From: a virus | Lineage: Duplodnaviria; Caudoviricetes | Virus record (IMG/VR): IMGVR_UViG_2738541308_000001 | Location: 20,260 to 84,259 of that record | Length of the DNA stretch: 64,000 nt | Reading direction: 5' to 3' (one strand) | In this document: positions 8,072-63,001 of the stretch, in pieces | Layout of the letters: each line of letters begins with the position of its first letter | Numbering within the stretch: the first letter of the stretch is position 1 | Program-made: the position numbers and the translations under genes | The notes under the pieces: model-generated | Told to the model about the DNA's origin: nothing | Databases searched by the model: none | What the model saw: only the letters and a program-made list of their open reading frames with translations

Positions 8072-8505
8072 GCACCACCTTCGAGGTAGAAGCCGACATC
8101 AGCTTCGACGACCTCGTACCCGCACCCAAAGCCCCACCACGCACCGTCGGCCACGACCCCCACATCGTGGCCGACAACTACCACTGGCTCCACACCACAG
8201 GCCACCCCGAAGACGTCATCGCCGAACGGCTCGGACTCGACCGGGAGACCCTTCGCAAACACCTCCGGACAGCCAACTACCAACCACCGCTTCTCGGCCG
8301 GAACCTCCACGTACAACGCACCATCGACCGACTCATCGCCACACGGCAGCCGTTCACCTGTGAATCGCTCCCCGAAGGCGACAGCAAATACGCCACCAAC
8401 TCACTAGTCCGGCTCGCACACAAACAGGGGCGCATCCGCAGGGCAGGAAAATCCACCCTCGGCTACATCCTCTGGGAAGCCACCACAGAACAGGCCAGCG
8501 CATGA
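8068..8505 (+). CDS. HTH DNA-binding protein
   Basis: EDVIAERLGLDRETLRKHL helix-turn-helix. Confidence 0.65.
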   Translation: MSTTFEVEADISFDDLVPAPKAPPRTVGHDPHIVADNYHWLHTTGHPEDVIAERLGLDRETLRKHLRTANYQPPLLGRNLHVQRTIDRLIATRQPFTCESLPEGDSKYATNSLVRLAHKQGRIRRAGKSTLGYILWEATTEQASA

Positions 8506-52659: not shown

Positions 52660-54397
52660 ATGACAGCTCCCCTGATCGACGAGGACCTTCTCGCGCAGTG
52701 CAACGCGATCTGGGCCGCGACAACTGAGCAGGAACGGGAAGAGACGCAACGTCGCCTCGAACCGCCACTGCTACGGCTCTGGGACGGCGACTACAAACTC
52801 CAGCACGTCGTCGCGTGCGAGTACTCGGCGAACTTCGAGTGGATCAACAACGACTCGGGAACCGGATCCACCGAGATCCCGTTCGACTCCGAAGCAGCAA
52901 TGTGGATCTGGGACGTCAAAGCGCGGATGGCGCGCGGCGAGAAGCGAAACATCCACATCACCGTCGACAAGGACGGTGCGCGCTGGTCCGGACGCATGCA
53001 GGACTTCTCGGTCCAGAAACGCGAGGACGGCACCGTTGTCCTCGTCGTCCGGTGGATGCACGACTACGAAAACCTCAAGTGGTATCAAGTTTGGTCAAAT
53101 CCGAATCTGCCTGCCGCACTACAGTTTCCGCGTGTATTTATGCTCGCCGGGCCAGCAATTTGGGCTTTGAAGCTCAGTCTGTTCCTCCAGATCAAGCGTG
53201 AAAACCGTTCAGCGTGGGCACTTTCCGACGATCCGCTCAATATCTCGTCGTGGGGTTCCGGGCTCGACATGTCCAACTGGAATGTCGTCGTCAAACCCAC
53301 CAGCTTCATGGACGACCTCAACGCAGGCACCTTGTGGGCGATCGTCTCGTCGCGGTGGAAGACCTGGCACGACATGGCGAAGCGTCCCCTCGAGGACGCC
53401 GAACTGACTGTCGTCGTCCGTCGATACCTCGAAGGCGACCCGCTGCCTTGGCCAGGAGCGAACCTGCGCCATGGCGCACTCGTCATCGACATCGTCGACA
53501 AGTCCGGTTACTACACCGGAACGTCCAACGGTGGCAACCTATACTCCGGTCTCACACGTGCAGTCGCGAAGTTCGCCGACGACTTCATCGACTCCACACT
53601 CGACCTGATCGTCGATGCCGACGTGCCCGGCGACTACTTCATGCCCGGCTACAAGTCGACACACGTGTCGATGCCCTACGTGATCTACCGCGAGGGCGAA
53701 GAGACCGGCATACGCTCGTCGACCTTCACGTACTCACCTTCTACAGCGGTTCAAGTAAACGCGGGCGGACACTCGATGCCGGGGGTCGTCTAGCCCCACT
53801 CGTTGATTCGGGTGGGGCTAGACGATCTCAATCGTCAACGAATTGCTTTCCGCGACTATCCAGATGCTCGGGGATCTCACTGCGATGATCCCCGGCGTGC
53901 CGCCTCTCGGCGGTGCTGCTGACGCGGTGCTCAAACCGCTCTACACGGACACCATCTTGGCGTGGATGTCCGTCGATTCACCTCAGCGCAAAAACAATTC
54001 GGGGTGGTCACGGTACTTCGAGTACTTCCAGGACGGCGCTGACAAGGCGTACACACTCAGCTCCCTCCTGGTGCTCCGTGCCGGCTTCTACGCGACCAAG
54101 ACGTGGTTCACACACGAACTCGCCATCTCTGACGCGGCTCCATTCCTCGTCGGGGACAACGGACTCGGTCACTTCTTCCTCGGTGATCGAATCGGCGCCA
54201 CGATCCCTGGTGACTTCACCGGGGAGGTGTACGTCGATCGGGTGTGCAGGCTCTCGCTGGCCTGGGACCGCGACGCGAATCCCGAATGGATGCCGGTCAT
54301 CGGCGACAACCGCGCGCTGCAGGACCCAGGGCAGCGCGCCATGGAACTGATCGAAGACATCAAGGCGGCAATACACGACCTCGGTGTCAATTTCTGA
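52660..54397 (+). CDS. Minor tail (hub/Tal-like) protein interrupted by 46-nt insert at 53791-53836
   Basis: ORF1 ends GGHSMPGVV-stop; downstream frame resumes NELLSATIQ...LYTDTILAW...GHFFLGDRIG; fused length 563 aa. Confidence 0.85.
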
Positions 54398-54412: not shown

Positions 54413-55045
54413 ATGTCAGTCGACGAGTTCCCGTTGCGGGACAACTCAAATCTGGACGATCCGGAAGAGATGTTCCTGCATCTCCTCGTCGGACTGCCCG
54501 GGATGAAGGGTGCGCCACTCCCATTCCCGGTGTCGTACCTGCGTCAGGTGTCGCGCCGCCTTTACGACGGCGGCGCGCGCCTGGTCGCAGACCCCACCAT
54601 CGAGTACCACCCGCCACGAACCGGCGACGTCAACTCGATGTTCTCGGCAGGCACGTGGAAGCCGGTCGGCACCGCGAAAGAACCACCGATCGACGTCGAC
54701 ATCTCCAGACTTCCCGACTCCATCCGAAAAGAGCTCGTCCGGCAGCTCATCGCGTCCGGTGAGATCCCCGGGATCGACCCCACTGTCGGACAGGACATCC
54801 CCGACATCCTTCGCGGTCCGAACGCGCCGGAGAAACCGAAGGCGGAATCGAAGTCCGACCCGAAGTCTGTGCCCGCCGAGGACCTCCGTATCCGCGTCCG
54901 TGAAGTCGCGAAGCAGTGCGGAGTCTCGAACAAGGCCGCGCTCAAAGCCCTCAAGGAAATCGGGAGCGACGTCAAATCCGTCAACGCGGCGATCGATCGC
55001 AGTACCGCATTCAAGTTGTACGGCCTTCTGGCCCAACCACGTTAG
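54413..55045 (+). CDS. DUF2744-like tail-region protein with C-terminal IF2_N-like domain
   Basis: DPEEMFL..LVGLPG..GAPL; IRVREVAKQCGVSNK. Confidence 0.8.
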   Translation: MSVDEFPLRDNSNLDDPEEMFLHLLVGLPGMKGAPLPFPVSYLRQVSRRLYDGGARLVADPTIEYHPPRTGDVNSMFSAGTWKPVGTAKEPPIDVDISRLPDSIRKELVRQLIASGEIPGIDPTVGQDIPDILRGPNAPEKPKAESKSDPKSVPAEDLRIRVREVAKQCGVSNKAALKALKEIGSDVKSVNAAIDRSTAFKLYGLLAQPR

Positions 55046-55054
55046 GAGATAGCC

Positions 55055-56122
55055 ATGGAATGGACAGGCGATCCCGTATTTCTCGAACAGGTCATTCGAG
55101 ATGCGGGAGTAAGTGTCAGCCTCTATCCCGGCGCCCTTGATCGAGGGCAGGGCGATTTCTACAAAATCTGGGGGATTGTCGACCATCACACTGGCGCACC
55201 AGTCGGAAGTAACCCTGGACCCGGCGCAATCGCGAAACACCCCACCCTTGGCCTCGCATCCCAGATTCACTTGTCCCGCAAGGGCATCGCAACCATCTGC
55301 GGTGTCGGCATCGCCTACCACGCAGGAGCGGGTTCCTGGCCCGGCATCGCCCAGAACGCAGCAAACCAGGTCACGATCGGCATCGAGGCCGAGAACAGCG
55401 GTACCGAAGGCTGGTCATCCGAACAGTATTGGGCGTACGTCCGCATCAATGCGGCGATTCTCCGCAAGCTCGGGCATCCGTCTTCTCGCACGATCGGCCA
55501 CAAGGAATGGGCGAAGGTCCAAGGCAAGTGGGATCCGGGCGGGATGGACATGGATAAGTTCCGCGCGGACGTCGGCAACGTGATCGCGGAACTGAACGGC
55601 GTCAAGCCTGACGTGCCGGTCATCGAAAACCAGATCGACCGTGTCCGGTTCTTTTCCGACTGGCTCGGCAATCGCCTCCACGACGGAGAACGCAAGTGCA
55701 AGGACGGAGTCGGCCGATACGCGGACTTCGAGAACGGCTCGATCTACTGGCACCCCGACACCGGTGCGGTACCGGTGCCGAAGCTGGTCTACGAGGTATG
55801 GGCAGCGCGAGGTTGGGAGATCGAATTCCTGGGCTACCCACAGCGGTTCCACGTCGTATACGAGAACGAAGGCGACCTGCAGAGCTTCCAGGGCGGCACG
55901 ATCGCCCGCCGCTACGGCACCCCCGGCTACGTCTGCCACGGCGTCATCGGACGCCGATGGATCGAAGAAGGCGGCGTCCGCGACGTCAACGGTCAGCCCA
56001 CACAACTCGGCTGGCCGACATCGGACGAATACGACCATGAAGGTGGCCGGCGTCAGGACTTCGAGCACGGCTCCTTGGTCTGGCATCCGTCCGGAGCGAT
56101 CAAGATCGTGAGGAGCGCCTGA
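55055..56122 (+). CDS. Endolysin (amidase_2 + LGFP repeats)
   Basis: HHTG, YHAGAG, IGIEAEN, GHKEW, GKWDPG; LGYP/LGWP repeats. Confidence 0.93.
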   Translation: MEWTGDPVFLEQVIRDAGVSVSLYPGALDRGQGDFYKIWGIVDHHTGAPVGSNPGPGAIAKHPTLGLASQIHLSRKGIATICGVGIAYHAGAGSWPGIAQNAANQVTIGIEAENSGTEGWSSEQYWAYVRINAAILRKLGHPSSRTIGHKEWAKVQGKWDPGGMDMDKFRADVGNVIAELNGVKPDVPVIENQIDRVRFFSDWLGNRLHDGERKCKDGVGRYADFENGSIYWHPDTGAVPVPKLVYEVWAARGWEIEFLGYPQRFHVVYENEGDLQSFQGGTIARRYGTPGYVCHGVIGRRWIEEGGVRDVNGQPTQLGWPTSDEYDHEGGRRQDFEHGSLVWHPSGAIKIVRSA

Positions 56123-62509: not shown

Positions 62510-62759
62510 ATGTCGAAGATTGAGCGAGCGCCGCGGCGGTGCCCCAACGGCCACCCGCTCGCACCGAATCGAACGCTCGTCGGCTGGGAAGTCTGCGGTT
62601 GCGTCCGATGCCCACAACGGTGGGCATCGGACGCACTACTGTCGAGAGTGTGGGGCGACGATCCGGACGCCACCTTGCAGCGGCGCTGAACCCCAGGCCG
62701 ACCGATGGGCGAACCGCGCAGCGGAAGCCCCGAAATCCCCCGTTTACCCCCCGAATTGA
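62510..62759 (+). pseudogene. Frameshifted small Zn-finger gene
   Basis: CPNGH..VGWEVCGC in one frame, HNGGHRTHYCREC in another; intact homolog at 63028-63234. Confidence 0.8.
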
Positions 62760-62860
62760 AGTCTCGTGACTGTCATCTAGTGTCTAGTGGAGAACTAGAC
62801 ATAGCAGGCTGGGCGACGTTTTGACAACGCATCTACCTGCGTCTATGTCAAAATGACTTC

Positions 62861-62898
62861 TTAACGGACGGTTGCTGGTTCGAGTCCAGCCGGGGGAG
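62861..62898 (+). repeat. att core: 3' half of a tRNA (probably Asn)
   Basis: TTAACGGACGGTTGCTGGTTCGAGTCCAGCCGGGGGAG has T-arm and 3' acceptor strand, no 5' half upstream. Confidence 0.8.
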
Positions 62899-62908
62899 CG
62901 TTCAGAAG

Positions 62909-62947
62909 AATCCCTGATCCGCAGCAATGCGGATCAGGGATTTTTTT
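62909..62947 (+). terminator. Intrinsic terminator following tRNA fragment
   Basis: AATCCCTGATCCGCA-GCAA-TGCGGATCAGGGATT perfect stem plus T7. Confidence 0.92.
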
Positions 62948-63001
62948 GTTGCACGGTTATGTCGAAGGCCTGCCAGGCGCCGCGTGACCGACAGCTGTCA
63001 T

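What the first reader, a model, noticed from the sequence alone, without database searches (positions are those of the whole stretch)
53782..53839. Candidate programmed translational bypass (T4 gene 60-like hop) inside a minor tail gene
Seen: the gene reads ...ATG CCG GGG GTC GTC TAG, then a ~21-bp stem (GGGGTCGTCTAGCCCCACTCG-TTGATT-CGGGTGGGGCTAGACGATCTC, mismatches only G-U compatible) containing the last codon and the stop, then a matching GTC at 53834-53836 followed by AAC GAA TTG... in another frame. Skipping 46 nt (53791-53836) gives a 563-aa protein; the downstream ORF has no obvious RBS. Established: T4 gene 60 bypassing uses a take-off codon, adjacent UAG, a hairpin (GGA UAG CC..GG CUA) and a matched landing codon across a 50-nt gap; from memory, actinophage homologs read GGHSMPGVNE continuously. 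Inference: ribosomes hop GUC-to-GUC, possibly gating virion assembly; G-U pairs point to selection on RNA. Alternative: a tiny inactivating or excisable insertion flanked by TCGTC direct repeats.
Basis: partly seen in the sequence, partly recalled or inferred. Interest (0 to 1): 0.92.

Follow-up and report, generated by a model that had tools for sequence, protein, structure and literature searches.

The report
Hairpin coding gap in phage tail-hub gene
A 46-49-base RNA hairpin with a stop codon cuts this prophage's essential tail-tip hub gene in two, and related hairpins sit at the same spot in many other actinobacterial phages, including lab-grown ones, so ribosomes most likely hop over it as in the rare phage T4 gene 60 case, though nobody has tested this.

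Summary
ORF 52660-53793 ends GGHSMPGVV-TAG. A 21-bp hairpin (53782-53829, -46.7 kcal/mol, z -7.7) holds the Val codons and the stop. GTC recurs at 53834-53836, and the protein resumes at AAC 53837 in another frame.

The two pieces are the halves of one domain (PF14594 2-249 | 250-370; PHROG_110 31-399 | 400-579). The protein is the gp27/VgrG-like tail-tip hub.

The insert is not a private lesion. I found 14 distinct hairpin inserts (49-59 nt, all three frame relations) at this exact site in divergent phages. The same hairpin family lies one codon upstream in 15 records of cultured M. smegmatis phages (Spartacus, Pollywog and others).

Evidence that the gap is decoded:
- Downstream ORFs are intact, with dN/dS 0-0.53.
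- The first codons after the gap are conserved without a start codon.
- The stems covary and use G-U pairs.
- Take-off and landing triplets share at least 2 of 3 bases in 15 of 16 cases.

Best reading: a hairpin "coding gap" family decoded by translational bypassing (about 0.6). It resembles T4 gene 60 and is not homologous to it. No protein or RNA proof exists.

This scan had already noted sister hairpin gaps on other DNA (e1-6205336, e1-6228503). No paper describing them turned up in seven full-text searches.

The parts
52660..53787 (+). 5' coding segment of the tail-tip hub (minor tail) gene, up to and including the first Val codon (V1)
   Evidence: ORF 52660-53793. PHROG_110 positions 31-399. 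PF14594 positions 2-249. tblastn matches to phage minor tail genes end at residue 376.
53785..53790 (+). GTC GTC: candidate take-off codon(s). The first (V1) is the native Val; the second is the first triplet of the insert.
   Evidence: Uninterrupted homologs have one V/I/T here. All 12 of 12 metagenome hits to the GGHSMPGVV pattern carry an insert. The third base of V1 covaries with the 3' arm (alignment columns 12/51) and is compatible with the third base of the landing triplet in all 14 V-site inserts listed.
53791..53793 (+). UAG stop directly after the Val codons, inside the 5' arm of the stem
53782..53829 (+). Main hairpin: 21-bp stem (53782-53802 / 53809-53829), 6-nt loop
   Evidence: Fold. 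Covariance model R1 scores 44.9 bits on the sense strand against 28.1 on the antisense strand.
53775..53836 (+). Extended structure: an outer 4-bp helix (53775-78 with 53833-36) closes the hairpin and involves the landing triplet
   Evidence: MFE structure. Analogous outer helices (AUGCC.GG with CC.GGCAU) appear in 7 of the 14 V-site relatives folded.
53830..53833 (+). Short unpaired tail (AATC) between the main stem and the landing triplet
   Evidence: Tails are 6-20 nt in relatives.
53834..53836 (+). GTC: candidate landing triplet
   Evidence: It is identical to both Val codons. In the family, 15 of 16 landing triplets share at least 2 of 3 bases with the take-off codon.
53837..54397 (+). 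3' coding segment (186 codons plus stop), resuming at AAC GAA (NELLSATIQ...)
   Evidence: PHROG_110 positions 400-579. PF14594 positions 250-370. tblastn. It has no start codon at its beginning. The segment is conserved in the family with synonymous change.

Best explanation
The 46-49 nt between the Val codon(s) at 53785-90 and AAC 53837 is a non-coding 'coding gap'. It belongs to a family of GC-rich hairpin inserts that live in the tail-tip hub gene of phages of Mycobacteriales.

Most likely mechanism (inferred): the gene is transcribed with the insert. A ribosome carrying peptidyl-tRNA-Val at GUC meets the UAG, and the upper part of the very stable hairpin refolds at the A site. The ribosome does not terminate. 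It takes off, slides over the gap and re-pairs the tRNA with GUC 53834-36. Decoding resumes at AAC, giving one roughly 560-aa hub protein (...GGHSMPGV(V)NELLSATIQ...). This is the T4 gene 60 type of programmed translational bypassing.

Shown here:
- The anatomy of the gap.
- The continuity of homologs.
- Recurrence of the insert at this site in every frame relation.
- RNA-level covariation.
- Selection on the downstream half.
- Presence of the sister element in viable cultured phages.

Inferred: the hop itself, its efficiency, which Val codon is the take-off site, and how the element spreads.
For: 1. One gene, one domain. PF14594 is split 2-249 | 250-370 and PHROG_110 31-399 | 400-579. The fold is the single-chain gp27/VgrG-like hub: the model of full-length homolog P0003 matches the Bxb1 tail tip chain 9d93_Oa at E 5.7e-53.

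2. Recurrence. 13 of the 120 listed homologs end or change frame right after ..SMPGV/L. 8 of 34 viral-contig hits and 12 of 12 metagenome hits to the VV signature carry an insert. That gives 14 distinct inserts of 49-59 nt, counted after V1.

3. Insert length mod 3 is 0, 1 and 2. The in-frame inserts carry a stop in the loop, for example L013 and L043. The cultured relatives Spartacus (53 nt) and Pollywog (54 nt) differ by one base. This rules out frameshifting and fits a frame-independent hop.

4. The downstream half is expressed. The ORF is open for 183-186 codons in 18 of 18 loci that extend far enough; 20 were examined and 2 run off the contig. dN/dS is 0-0.53 in the 60 of 66 pairs that could be computed, for example L044/L032 at 0.065. 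The first nine codons after the gap (NE.ISA.IQ) are conserved, with synonymous changes that include TCN/AGY serine. No start codon precedes them.

5. RNA selection. Across 17 hairpins there are 365 Watson-Crick and 45 G-U pairs, and the main stems have almost no mismatches. 11 of 20 consensus pairs show compensatory changes, including the pair made by the wobble base of V1. The sense strand outscores the antisense strand at all 17 places.

6. Take-off and landing triplets share at least 2 of 3 bases in 15 of 16 cases. Elsewhere in the gaps 6-28% of triplets do so. The window's pair is a perfect GUC/GUC with an adjacent UAG.

7. Viability. 15 records (10 phage names) of plaque-isolated M. smegmatis phages carry the same hairpin (92-94% identical to the L052 core) one codon upstream, at GGRSPKW|LNDLMNAT. 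Close relatives such as Galactic lack it.

8. A second hairpin gap lies at another site of the same gene in L050, with UUU take-off, UUC landing and 50 nt between them. This is the behaviour of a mobile bypass element.

9. The gap lengths bracket the 50 nt of T4 gene 60, whose defining features I read in the Introduction of PMC5462505.
Against: There is no direct evidence of a fused protein or of a hop anywhere in the family.

Only the window has an exactly matched landing triplet. L042, L051 and L050 site 1 match by wobble. Most relatives land on near-cognate triplets: GUG to GCG, GUC to UUC, UGG to UGA. For T4 gene 60 such pairs would be expected to lower efficiency (recalled, not read here).

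Most relatives have a sense codon after the Val codons (UGC or UGU), not a stop. If V1 is the take-off codon, the A-site codon is an ordinary Val codon.

I found no cultured phage with the insert at the window's own V site. Four of the 14 insert types were used as blastn queries.

The cultured carriers are annotated as two genes, and a two-protein hub cannot be excluded from sequence alone.
Confidence: 0.6

Rival explanations
1. RNA-level removal: the hairpin is a mini-intron or processing substrate that host or phage enzymes cut out and religate, so the mature mRNA is continuous.
For: Frame independence, RNA-level covariation and selection on the downstream half fit splicing as well as bypassing. 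A real 265-nt group I intron, spliced by RT-PCR, sits six codons upstream in the homologous BAKA gene (passages read in PMC3706429), so this region does host introns. First-reader notes report an RNA-repair toolkit with Ro60 and Y RNAs in this prophage (e1-6230941; I did not test this).
Against: The insert is 46-59 nt of almost pure hairpin, far below any known self-splicing intron. No Rfam family approaches its gathering score: the best match is 16.7 bits against a threshold of 100. No bacterial pathway is known that cuts and religates such a hairpin inside an mRNA (my own knowledge). Splicing would not explain why the take-off and landing triplets resemble each other, nor why the wobble base of the take-off codon tracks the landing triplet.
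Confidence: 0.12
2. Split gene: the hairpin insert simply divides the hub into two polypeptides (about 377 aa and about 180 aa) that assemble non-covalently. The second is translated on its own from an internal start.
For: Annotators of the cultured carriers call two genes, for example Spartacus gp16 and gp17. In Spartacus the read-through frame ends in TAATG, overlapping the Met of ..DLMNAT. The break falls at a strand-to-helix junction, between E362-368 and H375-393 of the model. I recall that the T4 topoisomerase is itself split by the mobile gene 60 cassette.
Against: The nine codons between the gap and the first possible start are conserved at protein level with synonymous change. That is unexplained if they are untranslated. 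No start codon or SD-like run lies at the resume point in the window (GACGATCTCAATCGTC AAC GAA), and candidate internal starts are not conserved: Met in some lineages, Ala in others. The TAATG overlap is absent in Pollywog, Kersh and MadMen. The stop position varies from 0 to more than 30 codons after the Val codons. The break lies inside one Pfam domain. This model would not explain the related take-off and landing triplets.
Confidence: 0.15
3. Inactivating insertion: in this particular prophage the palindromic insert, flanked by TCGTC repeats, has killed the gene and the prophage is tail-defective. Precise excision between the repeats could occasionally revert it.
For: TAG lies directly after the Val codons, and 5-bp direct repeats flank a palindrome, a configuration I recall as prone to slipped-strand deletion. 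No cultured phage has the V-site insert in the four blastn searches run.
Against: The record is rated 98% complete. The same insert is unchanged in strains whose flanks differ: L004, L053 and the X2 contig, which carries 12 substitutions and none in 53725-53868. The downstream ORF is intact here and in 18 of 18 family loci and is under purifying selection. Sister elements are carried by viable phages. One V-site carrier (G003, locus L042) is a 100%-complete record with direct terminal repeats.
Confidence: 0.08

Closest known systems
Phage T4 gene 60 programmed translational bypass (50-nt coding gap)
   Same: A take-off codon sits inside the base of a hairpin. In this window UAG follows directly. 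A matching landing codon lies about 46-50 nt downstream. The gap is non-coding and independent of frame. The setting is a phage gene, with hints that the insert is a mobile element. The gene 60 features were read in the Introduction of PMC5462505.
   Different: There is no sequence homology and the gene is different: a tail hub, not a topoisomerase subunit. The hosts are high-GC Actinobacteria. Most family members have near-cognate landing triplets and no adjacent stop. No homing-endonuclease gene is attached. A nascent-peptide signal is unknown. The hop is untested.
Mitochondrial 'byps' of the yeast Magnusiomyces capitatus (recalled from memory; only cited in PMC5462505 and PMC10732093, not read here)
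   Same: Short (tens of nt) GC-rich hairpin inserts, several possible per gene, apparently mobile, with take-off and landing triplets related to each other. The L050 gene with two hairpin gaps mirrors this.
   Different: A different domain of life and a different genetic system. Here the elements were found only in one gene family: 17 of 17 model hits and one hit in each of 5 whole phage records.
Candidate UUA-triggered bypassing in the Streptomyces phage phiHau3 terminase gene (PMC10732093: abstract and passages read)
   Same: An actinophage structural or packaging gene interrupted by short inserts that homologs lack. The paper proposes bypassing aided by local RNA structure. The 16-nt insert in L055, followed by the rare AGA codon, resembles it.
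   Different: The phiHau3 gaps are about 10 nt and depend on a rare UUA codon. The window's gap is 46-49 nt, dominated by a long hairpin, with a stop codon.
Group I intron in the homologous minor tail gene of Cluster J phages BAKA and Optimus (PMC3706429: passages read)
   Same: The same protein family and the same conserved region: after ..VIVGG, six codons upstream of the equivalent site. The insert is absent from close relatives, and the gene is functional despite the interruption.
   Different: The BAKA insert is 265 nt with group I features and its splicing was shown by RT-PCR. The window's insert is five times smaller, a plain hairpin, with no Rfam match.

Membership tests
T4 gene 60-type programmed translational bypass | Take-off codon immediately followed by a stop codon | tested here: met
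   GTC GTC TAG at 53785-93. In the family this holds only for the window, L048 and partly L010. Others have UGC, UGU or GGU after the Val codons.
T4 gene 60-type programmed translational bypass | Matching landing codon about 50 nt downstream, followed by the continuing ORF | tested here: met
   GTC at 53834-36, 46 nt after the second GTC, then AAC GAA... open for 186 codons. In the family 15 of 16 share at least 2 of 3 bases, and an exact or wobble-equivalent match occurs in 4.
T4 gene 60-type programmed translational bypass | mRNA hairpin formed around the take-off codon | tested here: met
   A 21-bp stem includes both Val codons and the UAG. It is conserved and covaries in 14 relatives.
T4 gene 60-type programmed translational bypass | Stimulatory nascent-peptide signal, and 5' and 3' stem-loops | not testable with these tools
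   The upstream peptide GGHSMPGV is equally conserved in uninterrupted homologs, so it is uninformative. An outer helix is predicted, but its role is unknown.
T4 gene 60-type programmed translational bypass | A single polypeptide is actually made across the gap | not testable with these tools
   This needs mass spectrometry or a reporter. The only support is indirect: selection on the codons directly after the gap.
T4 gene 60 / mobA cassette (homologous family) | Located in a topoisomerase subunit gene and associated with a homing endonuclease gene | tested here: not met
   The host gene is the PF14594 tail hub. The insert is 46-49 nt with no ORF. The neighbours are tail genes and a lysin-like gene.
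Self-splicing intron (group I or II) or known ribozyme | Match to a curated RNA family, and a size compatible with a catalytic core | tested here: not met
   The best Rfam match is 16.7 bits against a gathering score of 100, and it is an unrelated family. The insert is 46-49 nt.
Intrinsic (Rho-independent) terminator | GC-rich hairpin followed by a U tract | tested here: not met
   The scan found no terminator-like site in 53500-54100. The stem is followed by AATCGTCAAC.
Dispersed palindromic repeat, MITE or PATE | Multiple copies at unrelated sites of the same genome | tested here: not met
   There is one copy in the 84-kb record at up to 3 mismatches and one model hit in the window. The exact-arm pattern found no copy in viral contigs, and only L004 (the same prophage) plus one unrelated palindrome (L003) in genome contigs. 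The host chromosome beyond the provirus record was not available.
Programmed -1/+1 ribosomal frameshift | One shift joins the two frames without meeting a stop | tested here: not met
   The 0 frame has TAG at 53791 and the landing frame has TGA and TAG inside the gap. Family inserts occur in all three frame relations.

The most novel reading that the evidence does not exclude
Actinobacterial phages harbour their own class of mobile bypass elements: about 50-nt hairpins that home to the most conserved stretch of the tail-hub gene, and occasionally to other sites in it. Each incorporates the take-off codon of its site into its stem and is decoded by hairpin-guided ribosome hopping that tolerates near-cognate landing triplets. 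That would be a third, independent natural system of programmed translational bypassing, and the first in high-GC Gram-positive bacteria with genetically tractable cultured carriers.
Probability: 0.5. Interest if true: 0.9.

Novelty: new variant of a known kind. Interest (0 to 1): 0.82.

Why it matters
Long-range programmed translational bypassing is one of the rarest recoding events. The established natural cases are the T4 gene 60 cassette family and yeast mitochondrial byps.

Here a non-homologous hairpin-gap family interrupts an essential virion gene. It shows about 15 sequence variants, all three frame relations, compensatory stem changes and near-cognate landing triplets. That would show bypassing evolves repeatedly, and it would give a natural series of variants for dissecting what the hairpin and the landing triplet each contribute.

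Because 10 named M. smegmatis phages that grow in the laboratory carry the sister element, the question can be tested directly by virion mass spectrometry, RT-PCR and phage engineering.

There is also a practical side. These genes are currently annotated as two 'minor tail proteins' or as truncated proteins (13 of 120 database homologs), so gene callers and phage annotation pipelines misreport them.

Tried and rejected
Frameshifting was rejected: stops lie in both relevant frames and family inserts occur in every frame relation.

Terminator, promoter and known RNA family were rejected: nothing was found.

A dispersed repeat was rejected: there is one copy in the record. The inverted-repeat scan of the window listed only ordinary palindromes and the terminators near 62600-62950. 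It did not list this stem among its 25 longest, presumably because the G-T pairs count as DNA mismatches.

The exact-arm pattern gave 0 hits in viral contigs. In genome contigs it gave 2 hits: L004, which is the same prophage segment, and L003, a Verrucomicrobia contig that I did not examine further.

The search for related loci with P0001 in viral contigs gave only 46-52% identical, uninterrupted relatives.

tblastn with the read-through form P0075, and a spread sample of 60 of 2464 phage records with P0003, found no cultured phage with a V-site insert. One of those 60 (BTCU-1) matched in 3 pieces and was not followed up.

RNA evidence. Contigs of three soil metatranscriptome runs from three studies cover both halves of the gene at depth about 2-6. 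They stop at 53761, 53748 and 53576 and resume at 53853, 53883 and 53865. No contig joins across the gap and none reads through it, while a DNA contig of run X2 runs through unchanged. This is a hole at low depth over a very stable hairpin. It neither shows nor excludes splicing, and DNA carry-over in the RNA libraries cannot be excluded.

The structure model places the break at a strand-helix junction. That does not decide between one chain and two.

Literature. Seven full-text searches found no description of a hairpin gap or bypass in an actinophage tail gene. Subscription journals and supplementary files were not searchable. PRFect (PMC10274946, passage read) mentions 12 SEA-PHAGES minor tail genes joined across more than 10 bp, which it attributes to group I introns.
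Full report
**What is there**

The window is part of an 84-kb provirus record rated 98% complete. ORF 52660-53793 (377 aa) ends ..NAGGHSMPGVV followed by TAG.

From 53782 to 53829 the RNA can form a 21-bp stem with a 6-nt loop. It has three G-U pairs and no mismatch. The stem contains GGG GUC GUC UAG in its 5' arm (-46.7 kcal/mol, z -7.7, 0 of 200 shuffles as stable).

Four bases after the stem comes GUC (53834-36). Then AAC GAA UUG... follows in the +1 frame, open for 186 codons. The 0 frame is closed by the UAG and the landing frame holds UGA and UAG inside the gap. No single frameshift can therefore join the two frames.

The scan found no terminator-like or promoter-like site, and no Rfam family comes near its threshold.

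**It is one gene**

- The two ORFs match consecutive parts of one profile: PHROG_110 31-399 and 400-579, and Pfam PF14594 2-249 and 250-370.
- More than 2,000 phage records hold both halves. In the prophage McProf they abut under a single 575-aa CDS.
- An AlphaFold model of the full-length homolog P0003 (80% identical; pLDDT 78.7) matches the tail-tip hub of mycobacteriophage Bxb1 (9d93_Oa, E 5.7e-53), the Douge baseplate, and gp27/VgrG-type hubs in general.
- The interrupted gene is therefore the central hub of the tail tip. In the gene order it lies third, after the tape measure gene and a first minor tail gene.
- The break falls between a strand (362-368) and a helix (375-393) of the model.

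**It is not private to this prophage**

Near-identical copies of the insert, with substitutions only in the flanks, lie in three places:
- a 2.8-kb contig of the genome collection (L004);
- a 1-kb metagenome contig (L053);
- a DNA contig of run X2, which spans 53421-54300 without a gap.

Of the 120 homologs listed by the protein search, 13 end or change frame right after ..SMPGV/L. Another 88 read G-G-x-S-x-P-G-[V/I/T]-[N/D]-E straight through. The remaining 19 are full-length (558-573 aa) with motif variants that my expression did not match.

A DNA pattern for HSMPGVV found 34 viral contigs. Eight of them are true cases in which NE[LAMTV][LI]S.. resumes after a gap, and 26 are unrelated chance matches. 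The stricter GGHSMPGVV pattern found 12 metagenome contigs, all 12 with the gap.

Together these give 14 distinct inserts at exactly this site. Each has:
- a 19-23-bp GC-rich hairpin starting 0-3 nt before the native Val codon;
- a loop that is often a GNRA tetraloop (GAAA or GCAA);
- a 6-20-nt tail;
- a triplet related to the Val codon, followed by AAY GAA.

Counted after the first Val codon, the inserts measure 49-59 nt. Their length mod 3 takes all three values. The in-frame inserts (L013, L043) carry a stop in the loop.

**The gap is tolerated and the downstream half is translated**

- In 18 of 18 loci that extend far enough (20 examined), the downstream frame is open for 183-186 codons.
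- Pairwise dN/dS of the downstream half among 12 insert-bearing loci is 0 to 0.53 in the 60 of 66 pairs where dS could be computed. Examples: L044/L047 dN 0, dS 0.066; L044/L032 0.065; L051/L052 0.18.
- The nine codons directly after the gap read NE.ISA.IQ in all lineages. Codon usage differs (AAC/AAT, ATC/ATT/ATA, TCN/AGY, GCG/GCC, CAG/CAA). No start codon lies between the gap and these codons.
- Translation must therefore enter this segment from upstream.

**The hairpin is selected as sense-strand RNA**

- Seventeen hairpins contain 365 Watson-Crick and 45 G-U pairs. Inside the main stems there is one G-A mismatch and one bulge. Seven C-A oppositions sit at the border to an outer helix.
- On a MAFFT alignment, 11 of 20 consensus pairs show changes on both sides that keep the pair. 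One of these is the pair formed by the wobble base of the native Val codon, which occurs as G-C, U-A and C-G.
- A covariance model built from the 14 V-site hairpins found three held-out copies: Spartacus at 44 bits, Pollywog at 41 bits and the second L050 site at 31 bits. It found nothing else in 194 kb. It scored the sense strand higher at all 17 places.
- Five whole phage records each have exactly one copy.

**Viable phages carry the sister element**

The hairpins of L044 and L052 match, at 84-94% identity over 31-38 nt, 15 records of phages isolated as plaques on M. smegmatis. These are Spartacus, Sabbb, LunaBlu, Guppsters, MadMen, Renaud18, ThetaBob, Cornie, Pollywog and Kersh.

In these phages the hub gene is annotated as two genes. 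Aligned with the close relative Galactic, which is uninterrupted, the insert is 53 nt (Spartacus, Renaud18, Cornie) or 54 nt (Pollywog, Kersh, MadMen). It lies between UGG (W) and the Leu codon of GGRSPKW|LNDLMNAT and ends in UGA. That is one codon upstream of the window's site in the aligned proteins. The 3' arm of the stem is adapted to pair with UGG and not with GUN.

An essential virion gene with this gap is therefore compatible with plaque formation. Two close relatives differ by one base in gap length.

One V-site carrier (G003, locus L042) is a 100%-complete record with direct terminal repeats.

**Take-off and landing triplets**

The triplet before the resume codon shares at least 2 of 3 bases with the native codon before the gap in 15 of 16 cases. 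The exception (GUU/GCC) reaches 2 of 3 if U and C are treated as wobble-equivalent. Elsewhere in the gaps 6-28% of triplets do as well.

The third base always agrees in the sense of one tRNA: GUC or GUU goes with NNC, and GUG goes with NNG.

Uninterrupted homologs never have F, A or L at this position; they have 79 V, 7 I and 2 T. The UUC, GCG, GCC and UUG triplets are therefore unlikely to be decoded as amino acids.

The window's copy is the most gene-60-like of all: a perfect GUC/GUC pair with an adjacent UAG.

**Further gaps in the same gene**

- L050 has a second 19-bp hairpin gap at ..SNPF|LP.., with UUU take-off, UUC landing, 50 nt between them and a UAG inside.
- L055 has a 16-nt insert at the neighbouring codon: UCU followed by the rare AGA, then UCC.
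- L032, L036 and L049 (three samples) share a 5-nt insert, UUG-UAGUG-AAA.

**Mechanism**

Frame independence excludes frameshifting. Selection on the codons right after the gap and the lack of a start argue against an independent second protein. The size and plain hairpin shape argue against a self-splicing intron.

What remains is a ribosome that carries its peptidyl-tRNA from the codon in the stem base to a related triplet about 50 nt downstream. Phage T4 gene 60 does this with a take-off codon followed by UAG, a hairpin around the take-off codon, a 50-nt gap and a landing codon (Introduction of PMC5462505).

I put this at about 0.6. Enzymatic RNA excision (0.12), a genuinely split two-chain hub (0.15) and, for this copy alone, a dead gene (0.08) are the rivals.

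**Points against a simple gene-60 copy**

- The stems are much longer.
- The landing triplets are mostly near-cognate.
- Most relatives have sense codons after the Val codons.
- No homing endonuclease gene is attached.
- There is no homology to the gene 60 cassette.

**Known or new**

Seven full-text searches found no description. The nearest literature is:
- the group I intron in the homologous BAKA gene (PMC3706429);
- the candidate 10-nt bypass in the phiHau3 terminase (PMC10732093);
- a remark that the Bxb1 primase ORFs may use a frameshift or a bypass (PMC12646305).

Earlier notes of this scan describe the same kind of hairpin gap, with UGG codons, in tail genes of other genomes (e1-6205336, e1-6228503, e1-6216622, e1-6216628). 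They reach the same untested reading.

I rate this a new variant of a known kind. It is of high interest because cultured carriers make it directly testable.

Noticed in passing
L050:1601-1671 (metagenome contig): A second hairpin coding gap lies in the same hub gene at a different site (..ASPF|LPPEIQFP). It has a 19-bp stem that includes the take-off UUU, a UAG inside, landing UUC and 50 nt between the two Phe triplets. The model built without it scores it at 31 bits.
   Followed up: partly
L032:~8234-8255; also L036 and L049: A 5-nt insert, TAGTG, follows TTG in ..HDYEHL|KWYS.. of the same gene (UUG UAG UG AAA). The three contigs carry different sample identifiers. The close relative L044 is uninterrupted at this point. 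It looks like a short stop-hop.
   Followed up: partly
L055:~992-1018: A 16-nt insert in ..VWS|NPF.. reads TCT AGA TCG GCG GAT T TCC AAC. That is a Ser take-off and landing pair (UCU/UCC) with AGA, which I recall as a rare codon in high-GC actinobacteria, in the A site and no hairpin. It is reminiscent of the rare-codon bypass proposed for phiHau3.
   Followed up: no
window 54413-55045: The gene directly downstream combines a Phage_gene29 domain with a C-terminal IF2_N domain (E 1.6e-6, 28.2 bits against a cutoff of 25.3). This confirms first-reader note e1-6230942. Any link to decoding of the gap is pure speculation.
   Followed up: partly
window 55055-56122: An Amidase_2 plus LGFP-repeat protein (lysin A-like) lies two genes downstream of the hub gene, among the tail-region genes.
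   Followed up: no
L011 (phage BAKA, JF937090 27001-28999): The published 265-nt group I intron of the homologous gene sits after ..RVIVGG, six codons upstream of the site used by the hairpin elements. The most conserved stretch of this gene seems to attract several kinds of insert.
   Followed up: partly
L004 (genome contigs, 2809-nt contig titled Streptomyces sp.): This contig holds a near-identical copy of the window's hub gene segment, although the closest named protein homologs are from Rhodococcus, Nocardia and Mycobacterium. A short contig like this may be a contaminant or a mislabel.
   Followed up: no
window 53762-53852, runs X15-X17: Metatranscriptome contigs from three soil studies cover both halves of the gene and all leave a hole over the hairpin. 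Either the prophage's tail genes are represented in soil RNA libraries or DNA was carried over into them.
   Followed up: partly
window 62600-62948: Two strong hairpins lie here: 16 bp perfect at 62600-62635, and 21 nt at 62903-62948 followed by a T run. They look like terminators.
   Followed up: no
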